Assembly (NCBI GenBank): GCA_017504325.1
Contig: JAFVRL010000125.1
Coordinates: forward strand, 1-29,218
Reading direction: 5' to 3'
Source of the DNA: Lentisphaeria bacterium
GTDB taxonomy: Bacteria > Verrucomicrobiota > Lentisphaeria > Victivallales > UBA1829
DNA: 29,218 nucleotides
The notes below the pieces were generated by a model. The model worked only from the letters and a program-made list of their open reading frames with translations, made no database searches and was not told the DNA's origin. Below, piece by piece: positions 27,236 through 29,218 of this stretch. How positions within the stretch are numbered: position 1 is the stretch's first letter; each line of letters begins with the position of its first letter. A program made the position numbers and the translations under genes.

Positions 27236-27264
27236 TTGCAATGAAATAAAAATGAAGGTATATT
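27236..27264 (+). promoter_or_regulatory. Sigma70 promoter TTGCAA-N17-TATATT
   Basis: -35 at 27236-41 and -10 at 27259-64 with an exact 17-nt spacer; predicts a start site near 27271, about 340 nt upstream of the acyl-CoA synthetase ATG. Confidence 0.7.
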
Positions 27265-27298
27265 CTATAATCCGTTTAATTTGAAACAGTACAGGAAA

Positions 27299-27448
27299 AT
27301 GAAAATGAAGATTTTTTCAGAGGGGAAACTGAAAAATGTTTTTACCGCATTCCTTCCGGCATGCGGCTCTCTTCCTGTGCTTGCTGCCCTCCTTGTATCT
27401 TTTGTTGTACCCGTAGTGGTGCTTCTTGTACTTGCAGGCCGAGTTTGA
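27299..27448 (+). CDS. Unannotated 49-aa Val/Leu-rich small ORF (candidate leader peptide or small membrane protein)
   Basis: MKMKIFSEGKLKNVFTAFLPACGSLPVLAALLVSFVVPVVVLLVLAGRV-TGA; AGGA RBS at 27293-96; lies between the promoter and the acyl-CoA synthetase gene; below the ORF-track length cut-off. Confidence 0.55.
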   Translation: MKMKIFSEGKLKNVFTAFLPACGSLPVLAALLVSFVVPVVVLLVLAGRV

Positions 27449-27590
27449 CGGACCGCGTTGTTTTCCGTCAAGGATAAAAAACACCGCGGTCCGCACCCCA
27501 CAAAAAACCTGATAAGGGGAAAAAGACTTTTGCGTGTTTTCCTGACGGAGATCCGGACATTCTGAAGAAAAATGTCAACTGGACGATCTC
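27449..27590 (+). promoter_or_regulatory. Alternative RNA helices in the acyl-CoA synthetase leader (attenuator-like)
   Basis: Helix A CGGACCGCG(27449-57)/CGCGGTCCG(27485-93) plus TGTTTT/AAAACA. Helix B TCCGTCA(27464-70)/TGACGGA(27543-49) plus AAAACAC(27478-84)/GTGTTTT(27534-40). Helix C GAGATC(27548-53)/GATCTC(27585-90) plus GACATT/AATGTC. Confidence 0.45.
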
Positions 27591-27608
27591 AAATAAAAAG
27601 GAAAAAAA

Positions 27609-29195
27609 ATGTGTAGGAAAGAACAGAATGGGAAAGAGGAGGATTTCCGTATCTTTCAGGAATATCTCACTTTGGAAAAAGATGAAAATGGAGCCGTAAA
27701 AGGCGGCGTGTTCCATTATCCGGAAAATTTCAATTTTGCTTATGATGTGCTTGACCGCATCGCAGAAAAGACTCCGGATAAACCTGCTCTTATCTGGGTG
27801 GGGGACGATTTTTCAGAAAAGGTTTTTTCATTCAGGGAAATATCCCTTCTTTCCATGCAGGCAGCCAATTTTCTTACAGCCCGGGGGATACGGAAAGGGG
27901 ATCATGTGGCACTTGCTCTGCGCCGCAACTGGCAGTTCTGGATCATTATGATGGCCTGTACCCGGATCGGAGCAGTTGCTGTTATGCTCAACAATCAGCT
28001 TCTTGTCCATGATTTTCAATACCGTTTTGAAAAGACCGGAGCGGTTGCAGTTATCTGTTCAGCTATGGACAGAACGATTGAAGAGGCTTCTGCTGCCGCA
28101 GAAAAATGTCCCGCTGTAAAAGTGCGGATCAGTACATGCGGTTCAAGAAATTCCTGGCTCTCCTTTGATGATGAATTTACAAAATATCCGGCTTCTTTCC
28201 CCCGTAATGAACAGCACCGGGCAACAGATCCCCTTCTTATTTTCTTCAGTTCCGGAACAACAGGTTTTCCAAAAGGGATCATCCATACCCATACCTATCC
28301 GCTGGGACATACCATGACTGCATACTGGTGGCAGCAGGTGAATCCCGGGGGAGTTCATCTTACCATTTCCGATACCGGATGGGCAAAAGCCATGTGGGGC
28401 AAACTTTTCGGACAATGGCTGTGTGAAGGGGCTGTTTTTGTTTATGATTTTGACCGTTTCCATGCGTCAAAGATCCTGCCCATGTTCCGGAAATACAATA
28501 TCACCACTTTCTGCGCCCCGGCAACGATGTTCCGTTTCTTCATAAGAGAAGATCTTTCCCATTATGATTTTTCTTCTCTGGAGCATGTGGGGATGGCAGG
28601 AGAGGCTCTCAATCCGGAAGTCATGAACCGTTTTGCTCTTCTTACCGGTCAGATGATCCATGAGGGGTTCGGGCAATCGGAATCCACTGTCCTTATTGCC
28701 GCCGGACGCAATGTTTCTCCCAAAGCAGGATCCATGGGAAAACCCAATCCTCTTTATCCTGTCGTACTGCTCGATCCCGATGGGAAGCAGATCCCCCGGG
28801 GGGAGACCGGGGAAATATGTATAAAGGCAGAACCCGGTGAGATCCCCGGACTTTTTGTGGGATATTACGGGGATGAAGAGGAAACACTCCGGGTGTGGCA
28901 CGACGGATATTATCACACCGGGGATACCGCATGGTGCGATGATGATGGATACTACTGGTATGTGGGAAGAGTGGATGATGTGATCAAATCTTCCGGATAC
29001 AGGATCGGTCCCTTTGAGATCGAAAGCACCCTTATGGAACTTCCTTACGTGCTGGAATGCGGTGTGGTGGGGGCCCCTGATCCCATCCGCGGTCAGGCAG
29101 TGAAGGCATATATCGTTCTTACCAAAGGCAAAGAATTCCGAATGCATCAACTGCGCGTATTGTGGTGCAAAATCTGCAGGCGACAGAAAAAATAA
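27609..29195 (+). CDS. AMP-forming short/medium-chain acyl-CoA synthetase (MACS/ACSM-like); C-terminus aberrant
   Basis: NFNFAYDV, P-loop FFSSGTTGFPKG, SDTGWAKAMWG, GFGQSE, YHTGD and RVDDVIKSSGYRIGPFEIES. Family resemblance ends after IVLTKG at about 29130. Confidence 0.9.
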   Translation: MCRKEQNGKEEDFRIFQEYLTLEKDENGAVKGGVFHYPENFNFAYDVLDRIAEKTPDKPALIWVGDDFSEKVFSFREISLLSMQAANFLTARGIRKGDHVALALRRNWQFWIIMMACTRIGAVAVMLNNQLLVHDFQYRFEKTGAVAVICSAMDRTIEEASAAAEKCPAVKVRISTCGSRNSWLSFDDEFTKYPASFPRNEQHRATDPLLIFFSSGTTGFPKGIIHTHTYPLGHTMTAYWWQQVNPGGVHLTISDTGWAKAMWGKLFGQWLCEGAVFVYDFDRFHASKILPMFRKYNITTFCAPATMFRFFIREDLSHYDFSSLEHVGMAGEALNPEVMNRFALLTGQMIHEGFGQSESTVLIAAGRNVSPKAGSMGKPNPLYPVVLLDPDGKQIPRGETGEICIKAEPGEIPGLFVGYYGDEEETLRVWHDGYYHTGDTAWCDDDGYYWYVGRVDDVIKSSGYRIGPFEIESTLMELPYVLECGVVGAPDPIRGQAVKAYIVLTKGKEFRMHQLRVLWCKICRRQKK

Positions 29196-29218
29196 AAGAA
29201 TTTGCAACTACAAAAAAA

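What the first reader, a model, noticed from the sequence alone, without database searches (positions are those of the whole stretch)
27236..27611. Hidden Val/Leu-rich leader peptide upstream of an acyl-CoA synthetase: candidate BCAA-sensing attenuation of branched-chain fatty acid salvage
Seen: a consensus promoter (27236-64), then an RBS and a 49-codon ORF missing from the ORF track (27299-27448) in which 16 of the last 25 codons are Val or Leu (including GTT GTA CCC GTA GTG GTG CTT CTT GTA CTT). A strong hairpin starts at the first base after the stop, and the synthetase ATG is 160 nt later. Established: ilv/leu operons are controlled by Val/Leu-rich leader peptides (E. coli ilvL, ivbL), and many rumen/gut anaerobes make Val, Leu and Ile by activating isobutyrate, isovalerate and 2-methylbutyrate to CoA esters followed by reductive carboxylation. 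Inference: this synthetase activates branched short-chain acids and is regulated by ribosome stalling on Val/Leu codons. I am not aware of such a leader on an acyl-CoA synthetase. The main alternative is that the ORF is simply a one-helix membrane microprotein.
Basis: partly seen in the sequence, partly recalled or inferred. Interest (0 to 1): 0.75.

Follow-up and report, generated by a model that had tools for sequence, protein, structure and literature searches.

The report
Val/Leu-rich upstream ORF ending in hairpin
A small translated upstream reading frame, very rich in valine and leucine codons and ending inside an unchanging RNA hairpin, precedes a branched short-chain acyl-CoA synthetase in one gut Lentisphaeria genus that lacks two core branched-chain amino acid synthesis genes, so it may be a new amino-acid-sensing leader, although no terminator was found and a membrane micro-protein is not excluded.

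Summary
Promoter, 47/49-codon ORF, Val/Leu run, hairpin at the stop and the 160-nt spacer all sit at the stated coordinates.

**Conservation.** All four species of the genus keep the whole module as one unit, although the flanking genes differ.
- Only 3n indels occur inside the ORF, and 1-2-nt indels begin right after the stop.
- The final ~15 codons (..VVPVVVLLVLxGRV) are conserved.
- Val (10-11) and Leu (7-9) counts stay constant, and the hydrophobic part has no Ile.
- The Val/Leu density is among the top three windows in a six-frame scan of the assembly, and it is the only one in a short ORF.

- The enzyme is closest to MacsMa (PDB 3ETC, which prefers 2-methylbutyrate).
- The genus shows no ilvC or ilvD, but has a VorB-type oxidoreductase and a class-IV aminotransferase.
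- About 160 homologs carry a fused HTH-cupin domain; this paralog lost it and has the leader instead.

- There is no U-tract terminator, although this genome does use them.
- The synthetase RBS is not sequestered.
- The hairpin stem is invariant, so it gives no covariation.
- The uncharged stretch of about 33 residues also fits a membrane micro-protein.

Verdict: a translated, probably regulatory leader. Val/Leu sensing is plausible but unproven. Interest 0.6.

The parts
27236..27264 (+). Sigma-70-like promoter: -35 TTGCAA, 17-nt spacer, -10 TATATT.
   Evidence: Found by the scan. Both hexamers are conserved in the four species. The same TTGCAA-N17-TATATT pair recurs at 10780-10752.
27293..27296 (+). 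AGGA Shine-Dalgarno-like site of the upstream ORF.
   Evidence: Purine-rich SD-like sites lie 3-8 nt before the ATG in all four species.
27299..27448 (+). Upstream ORF of 49 codons, or 47 from the second ATG at 27305. It has a basic N-end, an uncharged stretch of about 33 residues, and a C-end ..VVPVVVLLVLAGRV.
   Evidence: It is open in 4 of 4 species (49, 49, 55 and 55 codons). Indels are 3n inside it and 1-2 nt after its stop.
27371..27445 (+). Last 25 codons, of which 16 are Val or Leu. The core run GTT GTA CCC GTA GTG GTG CTT CTT GTA CTT is at 27404-27433.
   Evidence: The density is among the top three windows of the six-frame translation of the assembly.
27440..27448 (+). Invariant ORF end CGA GTT TGA, followed by C. 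CGA is the rarest Arg codon and TGA-C is the least used TGA context.
   Evidence: CGA makes up 1.5% of Arg codons, and TGA-C accounts for 47 of 362 TGA stops in long ORFs. The end is invariant in four species.
27447..27494 (+). Main hairpin. Arms are at 27449-57 and 27485-93, with an inner stem and apical loop. The stop codon lies in its foot.
   Evidence: dG -26.3, z -4.6. All 10 stem pairs are invariant in four species. Covariance model R1 finds one copy per genome, only in this genus.
27461..27469 (+). Apical strand UUUUCCGUC of the hairpin. It is complementary to the downstream element at 27544-51.
   Evidence: 92% of cells are paired, against 36-64% when the partner is slid. Four pairs change on one side only, all wobble-compatible.
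27496..27502 (+). Conserved C-rich CCCCACA just 3' of the hairpin. It can pair with ORF codons -5 to -3 (UUGUGGG in G001 and G002) or with a downstream UUUGUG.
   Evidence: The outer helix is 86% paired with no compensatory change.
27544..27551 (+). Downstream element GACGGAGA. It is the 3' strand of a small local hairpin, or the alternative partner of the apical strand.
27599..27611 (+). A-rich RBS (AGGA) and ATG of the synthetase.
   Evidence: It is predicted to be mostly unpaired whatever the ribosome position on the leader.
27609..29135 (+). MacsMa-type acyl-CoA synthetase, short form without the HTH-cupin domain. Homology ends at about residue 510 because the contig end is unrelated sequence.
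   Evidence: Pfam AMP-binding. 3ETC scores 535 bits. Orthologs are 85-90% identical.

Best explanation
The 340-nt leader of this synthetase mRNA is a ribosome-dependent cis-regulatory device. A 47-55-codon upstream ORF is translated. Its last ~15 codons are a Val/Leu run followed by a rare CGA codon and a weak UGA-C stop that sits in the foot of an invariant 48-nt hairpin.

A ribosome that reaches the stop must melt the hairpin's 5' arm. That frees the apical strand and the 3' arm for other pairings, such as UUUUCCGUC with GACGGAGA. A ribosome held back on Val/Leu codons when charged tRNA-Val or tRNA-Leu is scarce leaves the hairpin closed.

The choice of fold then sets synthetase output. The enzyme most likely activates branched short-chain acids for reductive carboxylation to Val, Leu or Ile in a genus without ilvC and ilvD.

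**Shown:** conservation of the ORF as a frame, the Val/Leu density, the stop-in-hairpin geometry, the enzyme family and the gene content.

**Inferred:** translation, stalling, the switch and its sign. The output step is unknown. It is not intrinsic termination; Rho-dependent termination or transcript stability are candidates.
For: - The module (promoter, ORF, hairpin, synthetase) is kept in 4 of 4 genomes of the genus, while the flanking genes differ: a chagasin-like inhibitor, Rex or rplM upstream.
- The frame is kept by 3n indels only, and 1-2-nt indels start right after the stop.
- Changes in the last codons are mostly synonymous or among Val, Leu and Ala.
- Val counts are 10-11 and Leu counts 7-9 in all four, although other residues drift (Ser-rich in G002; Ala-, Pro- and Phe-rich in G003). 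Ile is absent from the hydrophobic part, although Ile is 6.9% genome-wide.
- The Val/Leu density is among the top three windows of the six-frame translation of 2.27 Mb.
- The CGA codon (1.5% usage) and the UGA-C stop are invariant at the hairpin foot.
- The hairpin has dG -26.3 and z -4.6. It is single-copy and genus-specific.
- The alternative helix is kept by wobble-compatible changes.
- The short form is one clade (100/100) among the sampled homologs. All other sampled homologs (about 160 loci) carry a fused HTH-cupin domain, so the leader stands where a regulatory domain was lost.
- The enzyme is MacsMa-like with the pocket residues kept.
- ilvC and ilvD were found in 0 of 4 genomes while controls gave 14 of 14. 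VorB is above its cut-off and Aminotran_4 is present.
- Rho is present in all four genomes.
Against: - There is no U-tract after the hairpin and no terminator before the synthetase. U-tract terminators dominate strong hairpins at gene ends in this genome: 77 of 139, against 2 of 14 inside genes.
- The synthetase RBS is A-rich and predicted open in every state.
- The main stem is invariant, so nothing shows that it acts as RNA rather than as a sequence-specific site.
- Every other helix rests on four related sequences with no double-sided change.
- The ORF is longer than classic leaders, and its uncharged stretch of about 33 residues is kept even where it is not Val or Leu, which fits a membrane peptide.
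- MacsMa prefers 2-methylbutyrate, the Ile precursor, yet the leader has no Ile run.
- No similar leader lies upstream of the VOR operon.
Confidence: 0.4

Rival explanations
1. The ORF encodes a single-pass (N-in) membrane micro-protein that is co-transcribed with the synthetase, for example as a membrane tether or partner. The hairpin is then an intercistronic stabiliser or partial stop.
For: - It has a basic N-end and then about 32-34 uncharged residues in all four species, although that part drifts in sequence.
- The C-terminal 15 residues are conserved, with synonymous changes.
- A gene caller called it.
- No terminator or RBS sequestration was found that would give a leader an output.
Against: - The Val/Leu density is far above that of ordinary membrane helices in this genome: only two other windows reach it in six frames.
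- There is no Ile, Met or Trp in the hydrophobic part.
- G003 has several Pro and G002 many Ser in the putative helix.
- No homolog was found elsewhere.
- The stop-in-hairpin geometry and the rare CGA codon are not needed by a micro-protein.
- The synthetase is a soluble-type enzyme.
Confidence: 0.3
2. The ORF-hairpin pair is regulatory but does not sense Val or Leu. Either general translation status is read (a ribosome pauses at CGA/UGA-C and opens the hairpin), or the hydrophobic nascent chain arrests the ribosome, as in tnaC- or secM-like devices.
For: - The rare CGA codon and the weak UGA-C stop are invariant at the hairpin foot.
- The last ~30 residues would lie in the exit tunnel at termination.
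- A C-rich CCCCACA follows the hairpin, and Rho is present.
Against: - The constancy of Val and Leu counts and the absence of Ile are not explained.
- CGA and UGA-C may simply be fixed by the conserved nucleotide element.
- No known arrest motif was recognised.
Confidence: 0.18
3. The element is an untranslated RNA, or a DNA site bound by a protein, for example a site for the HTH-cupin paralogs. The ORF is then a by-product of a pyrimidine-rich sequence.
For: - The stem and much of the loops are invariant, as expected for sequence-specific recognition.
- The inverted repeats TTGACGGA / TCCGTCAA and CGGACCGCG / CGCGGTCCG are perfect.
Against: - 3n-only indels inside the ORF against 1-2-nt indels after it, together with the SD-like sites, argue for translation.
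- The motifs are not found upstream of the six HTH-cupin paralogs.
- There is no Rfam family match.
Confidence: 0.07
4. It is a classic trp/ilv-type transcription attenuator that uses an intrinsic terminator.
For: There is a leader ORF with a regulatory-codon run, and there are mutually exclusive helices.
Against: - No hairpin-plus-U-tract lies between the ORF and the synthetase in any of the four species.
- The best candidate is a 6-bp A-U-rich stem with a broken U-rich tail.
- The genome otherwise uses canonical terminators.
Confidence: 0.05

Closest known systems
E. coli ivbL / ilvL / leuL leader peptides (ribosome-mediated attenuation of branched-chain amino acid operons)
   Same: A short upstream ORF with its own SD site, a dense run of Val and Leu codons near its end (ivbL is also Val/Leu without Ile; from my own knowledge), the stop next to RNA helices that exclude each other, and a downstream gene plausibly serving supply of the same amino acids.
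   Different: No intrinsic terminator. The ORF has 47-55 codons rather than 14-32. The regulated gene is an acyl-CoA synthetase, not an ilv or leu enzyme. The phylum is Lentisphaerota. The output step is unknown.
tnaC-type leaders, where ribosome position at the leader stop controls Rho access
   Same: The stop codon is placed directly before the regulatory RNA, a C-rich tract follows, Rho is encoded in all four genomes, and there is no intrinsic terminator.
   Different: No rut or boxA site was shown. The peptide is unrelated. The sensing would be of tRNA charging, not of a free amino acid in the tunnel.
MacsMa, the medium/branched-chain acyl-CoA synthetase of Methanosarcina acetivorans (PDB 3ETC)
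   Same: 535 bits over residues 37-506. Gly stands at the Acs Trp416 position and the alternate pocket Trp is kept (PMC10455477).
   Different: The source is bacterial. It is one of three paralogs and sits on a long branch (0.68 substitutions per site) after losing the HTH-cupin domain. The substrate is untested.
S. aureus MbcS (branched short-chain acyl-CoA synthetase; PMC10026030, PMC11167679)
   Same: It is the best NCBIfam model for the enzyme, and it has the same proposed role of activating branched short-chain acids.
   Different: The score is 336 bits against a cut-off of 850, so the enzyme is not a member of that equivalog. MbcS feeds fatty-acid synthesis.
Small hydrophobic bacterial micro-proteins encoded in operons (KdpF- or CydX-like)
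   Same: About 50 residues, one hydrophobic stretch, and co-transcription with a larger gene.
   Different: The partner is a soluble enzyme. The Val/Leu bias is extreme. No homologs exist elsewhere. The stop is embedded in a conserved hairpin.

Membership tests
Ribosome-mediated amino-acid attenuator (trpL/ilvL/ivbL type) | Short translated leader ORF with its own start signals upstream of the regulated gene | tested here: met
   The ORF is open in 4 of 4 species, with SD-like sites and 3n-only indels. Translation itself was not observed.
Ribosome-mediated amino-acid attenuator (trpL/ilvL/ivbL type) | Run of codons for the sensed amino acid(s) | tested here: met
   16 of the last 25 codons are Val or Leu. 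The counts are conserved, and the density is among the top three windows genome-wide.
Ribosome-mediated amino-acid attenuator (trpL/ilvL/ivbL type) | Intrinsic terminator (GC hairpin plus U-tract) between the leader and the gene | tested here: not met
   The hairpin tail is CACCCCACA, with no T. No terminator was found in any of the four species. Canonical terminators are common elsewhere in the genome.
Ribosome-mediated amino-acid attenuator (trpL/ilvL/ivbL type) | Mutually exclusive pairings selected by ribosome position | tested here: inconclusive
   Alternative helices exist and are kept, but there are only four related sequences and no double-sided covariation.
Ribosome-mediated amino-acid attenuator (trpL/ilvL/ivbL type) | Expression responds to starvation for the amino acid | not testable with these tools
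   The organism is uncultured, and the only RNA run held no leader sequence.
Translational attenuation / arrest-peptide leaders (ermCL, secM, mifM) | The downstream RBS is sequestered in a helix that the stalled ribosome opens | tested here: not met
   P(unpaired) of the SD-AUG region is 0.45-0.92 in all states, with no consistent change across species. The duplex between the Val/Leu tract and the synthetase start region beats shuffles only in G001.
Single-pass membrane micro-protein | Uncharged hydrophobic stretch of at least 18-20 residues, with a basic cytoplasmic end | tested here: met
   About 32-34 uncharged residues follow a Lys/Arg-rich N-end in all four species.
Single-pass membrane micro-protein | Protein family recognisable beyond this locus | tested here: not met
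   There is no Pfam or NCBIfam hit. Only its own record is in the 5.8-billion-protein set. The Atlas score of 0.80 is at chance level.
MacsMa-type acyl-CoA synthetase | AMP-binding fold with Gly in place of the Acs pocket Trp, plus the alternate pocket Trp | tested here: met
   The residue roles are taken from PMC10455477.
MacsMa-type acyl-CoA synthetase | Preference for small branched acyl substrates | not testable with these tools
   This needs an enzyme assay.
NCBIfam MbcS equivalog (NF047394) | Score above the curated cut-off | tested here: not met
   335.7 bits against a cut-off of 850.
Any Rfam RNA family | Match at the gathering score | tested here: not met
   There are 0 matches at gathering. 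The best E-value-mode hit is 25.6 bits against 60, on the opposite strand.

The most novel reading that the evidence does not exclude
A Val/Leu-sensing leader peptide works without an intrinsic terminator, by Rho or by fold-dependent stability, and controls a branched short-chain acyl-CoA synthetase. It would therefore control salvage of Val and Leu from isobutyrate and isovalerate in gut Lentisphaeria that lack ilvC and ilvD. This leader would have functionally replaced a fused HTH-cupin sensor domain that every other sampled family member carries.
Probability: 0.3. Interest if true: 0.8.

Novelty: new variant of a known kind. Interest (0 to 1): 0.6.

Why it matters
Leader-peptide attenuation is known for amino-acid biosynthetic operons. 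A full-text search found no case on an acyl-CoA synthetase.

If the reading is confirmed, it would have three consequences:
- It would extend tRNA-charging control to the isoacid salvage route that many rumen and gut anaerobes depend on.
- It would do so in a phylum (PVC group) where cis-regulatory RNA is almost unexplored.
- It would show a protein sensor domain being swapped for an RNA/ribosome sensor within one enzyme family.

It also gives a concrete, testable handle on how isoacid use is regulated in rumen microbes.

Tried and rejected
- **Rfam.** No family matched, at gathering or in E-value mode.
- **Protein homologs of the ORF.** Only its own record was found. The ESM Atlas gave a chance-level score of 0.80.
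- **Relic of the lost HTH-cupin domain in the leader.** tblastn found nothing below E = 0.08.
- **Shared operator with the HTH-cupin paralogs.** The inverted-repeat motifs are not upstream of the six long-form genes.
- **Val/Leu tract pairing with the synthetase start region.** The duplex is better than shuffles only in G001, so I read it as generic pyrimidine-purine complementarity.
- **RBS sequestration.** Not seen.
- **First pattern scan of 251 order-level genomes.** I set the first gap too long, so even the own copy was missed. The two hits are chance and that call is void. The covariance model replaced it.
- **Metagenome contigs.** No close relative of the short form was found. The best hit is 59% identical by the tool's own figure (64% over the full domain in my tblastn), and every homolog that reaches its N-terminus is a long form.
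- **RNA evidence.** One metatranscriptome run holds an exact 293-nt contig inside the synthetase (27992-28284) but nothing on the leader. This says nothing about leader transcription.
- **A similar leader upstream of the VOR operon of G001.** None found.
- **Read-through of the UGA.** The downstream frame is open for 19-67 codons but is not conserved, and it is broken by 1-nt indels between species.
- **Type I toxin reading.** No antisense promoter was found, and the ORF is strictly linked to the synthetase.
Full report
**1. Where the window lies.**
The window is a whole contig (C97) of a 57%-complete MAG with 46% GC. Its closest named relatives are Lentisphaeria/Victivallales MAGs from ruminant gut.

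**2. The observation.**
- The promoter is TTGCAA-17-TATATT. It matches 9 of 12 consensus positions rather than all of them.
- AGGA at 27293-96 is too close to the ATG at 27299 and well spaced for the ATG at 27305. A gene caller used the second start (47 aa).
- The hairpin is strong: dG -26.3 kcal/mol, z -4.6. Its foot includes the stop codon.
- No Rfam family matches.

**3. Conservation.**
A DNA search of 41 relatives and a covariance model run over 60 genomes of the family find the leader only in the window's own genus. It occurs once per genome and always upstream of the same synthetase. The four species keep:
- the two promoter hexamers;
- an SD-like site and an ATG;
- an open frame of 49, 49, 55 and 55 codons;
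- the same last codons (..VVPVVVLLVLxGRV, then TGA);
- an almost invariant hairpin.

The N-terminal half of the ORF differs greatly, but MAFFT places only gaps of 3, 6 or 9 nt inside it. Gaps of 1-2 nt begin immediately after the stop. That is the signature of a translated frame.

Flanking genes differ between species: a chagasin-like inhibitor, Rex or rplM upstream, and a convergent pseudopilin downstream. The promoter, ORF, hairpin and synthetase therefore travel as one unit.

**4. Is the Val/Leu bias special?**
- Val is 10-11 and Leu is 7-9 in all four peptides, although the remaining residues drift. G002 is Ser-rich; G003 is Ala-, Pro- and Phe-rich.
- Ile is absent from the hydrophobic part, although it is 6.9% of residues genome-wide.
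- In all six frames of the 2.27-Mb assembly, only three windows reach 11 of 14 Val+Leu. The other two lie in long proteins.
- The ORF ends with CGA, which is 1.5% of Arg codons, and with TGA-C, the least used TGA context. Both are invariant. Nucleotide-level constraint could explain that as well.

**5. The enzyme and its family.**
- Pfam gives AMP-binding domains.
- The best NCBIfam model is MbcS, but far below its cut-off.
- The nearest solved structure is MacsMa (3ETC, 535 bits). Its preferred substrate is 2-methylbutyrate. The Gly that replaces the Acs pocket Trp, and the alternate Trp, are both kept (PMC10455477).
- Every one of about 160 homologs at 50-64% identity from gut Clostridia and Lentisphaeria carries an N-terminal XRE-HTH plus cupin extension of about 200-250 residues, or a frame-broken copy of it.
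- Each genome of this genus has two such long forms and one short form.
- In a maximum-likelihood tree the short forms are one clade (100/100) on a long branch, and every other sampled row is a long form; their sister grouping with a Victivallaceae long-form clade is weak (81/33) and the tree is rooted only at the midpoint. One loss of the regulatory domain is the simplest history.
- No trace of that domain remains in the leader.

**6. Physiology.**
- ilvC and ilvD were not found in any of the four genomes, one of which is 94% complete. The same searches hit 14 of 14 control genomes.
- The acetolactate-synthase model scores below its cut-off.
- A class-IV aminotransferase is found in three of four genomes.
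- Three 2-oxoacid:ferredoxin oxidoreductase genes are present. One is named VorB above its curated cut-off.
- Carboxylation of isoacids to branched-chain amino acids in rumen microbes is established (for example as cited in PMC7356843).

**7. Mechanism.**
- The hairpin has no U-tract, and no terminator lies before the synthetase in any species.
- This matters because canonical terminators are used here. Among 1415 gene ends, 139 have a hairpin of -20 kcal/mol or stronger, and 77 of those have a U-rich tail. Inside genes the figures are 14 and 2.
- The synthetase RBS is A-rich and predicted open in all states.
- The main stem never varies, so covariation cannot confirm it.
- Masking the 5' arm, as a terminating ribosome would, yields a common alternative fold in all four species. 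The apical UUUUCCGUC pairs with a downstream GACGGAGA-like element. 92% of cells are paired against 36-64% when slid, and four pairs show one-sided wobble-compatible changes.
- A C-rich CCCCACA follows the hairpin, and Rho is encoded in all four genomes.

I therefore favour a ribosome-position switch whose output is not intrinsic termination. The output step is unknown.

**8. Rivals.**
- A membrane micro-protein fits the uncharged stretch of about 33 residues and the conserved C-end. It does not explain the extreme Val/Leu bias, the lack of Ile, or the stop-in-hairpin geometry.
- A non-specific translation sensor or an arrest peptide fits the rare codon and the weak stop.
- An untranslated element is disfavoured by the indel pattern.
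- A classic terminator-based attenuator fails its defining test.

**9. Verdict.**
This is a new variant of leader-ORF control, restricted so far to one uncultured genus. It has a plausible but unproven link to Val/Leu supply.

Noticed in passing
Loci L002-L165 (e.g. L002:2333-4483, L003:2386-4524); paralogs G001:C179, G001:C44, G002:C98, G002:C63, G003:C55, G003:C305: About 160 homologs of the synthetase in gut Clostridia and Lentisphaeria are fusion proteins of about 760-810 aa: an XRE-type HTH, a cupin domain and an acyl-CoA synthetase. A text search found no description of this fusion. It looks like a one-component regulator-enzyme family.
   Followed up: partly
Genomes G000-G003 (whole-genome searches): ilvC and ilvD were not found in any of the four genomes of the genus, one of which is 94% complete. 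A VorB-type 2-oxoisovalerate:ferredoxin oxidoreductase and a class-IV aminotransferase are present. This suggests branched-chain amino acids are made from isoacids or imported.
   Followed up: partly
window 29136-29218: The last 83 nt of the contig are unrelated to the orthologous 3' end. The synthetase loses about 54 C-terminal codons and reads ..KEFRMHQLRV.. instead of ..KEPSEALVKE... This is probably an assembly break at the contig end.
   Followed up: yes
window 10780-10752 (minus strand): The same TTGCAA-N17-TATATT promoter pair as at 27236-64 recurs upstream of another gene. GTATATT also precedes the VOR operon in G001 (L193, about 1180).
   Followed up: no
L001:1-250: The contig start upstream of the G003 leader holds two direct copies of a stretch of about 120 nt (CCTATTCGGCCTATTACGG...GCGGAGGG). 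Its nature is unknown.
   Followed up: no
window 27992-28284: A metatranscriptome run (X13) holds a 293-nt contig identical to the synthetase coding region. This is compatible with expression, although DNA carry-over is not excluded.
   Followed up: partly
window 27548-27553 with 27585-27590: A 6-bp helix (GAGAUC/GAUCUC) closes a loop of about 31 nt just upstream of the synthetase RBS. G001 and G002 have UUGAG(C)/(G)CUCAA at the same place, which may be a compensatory change.
   Followed up: no
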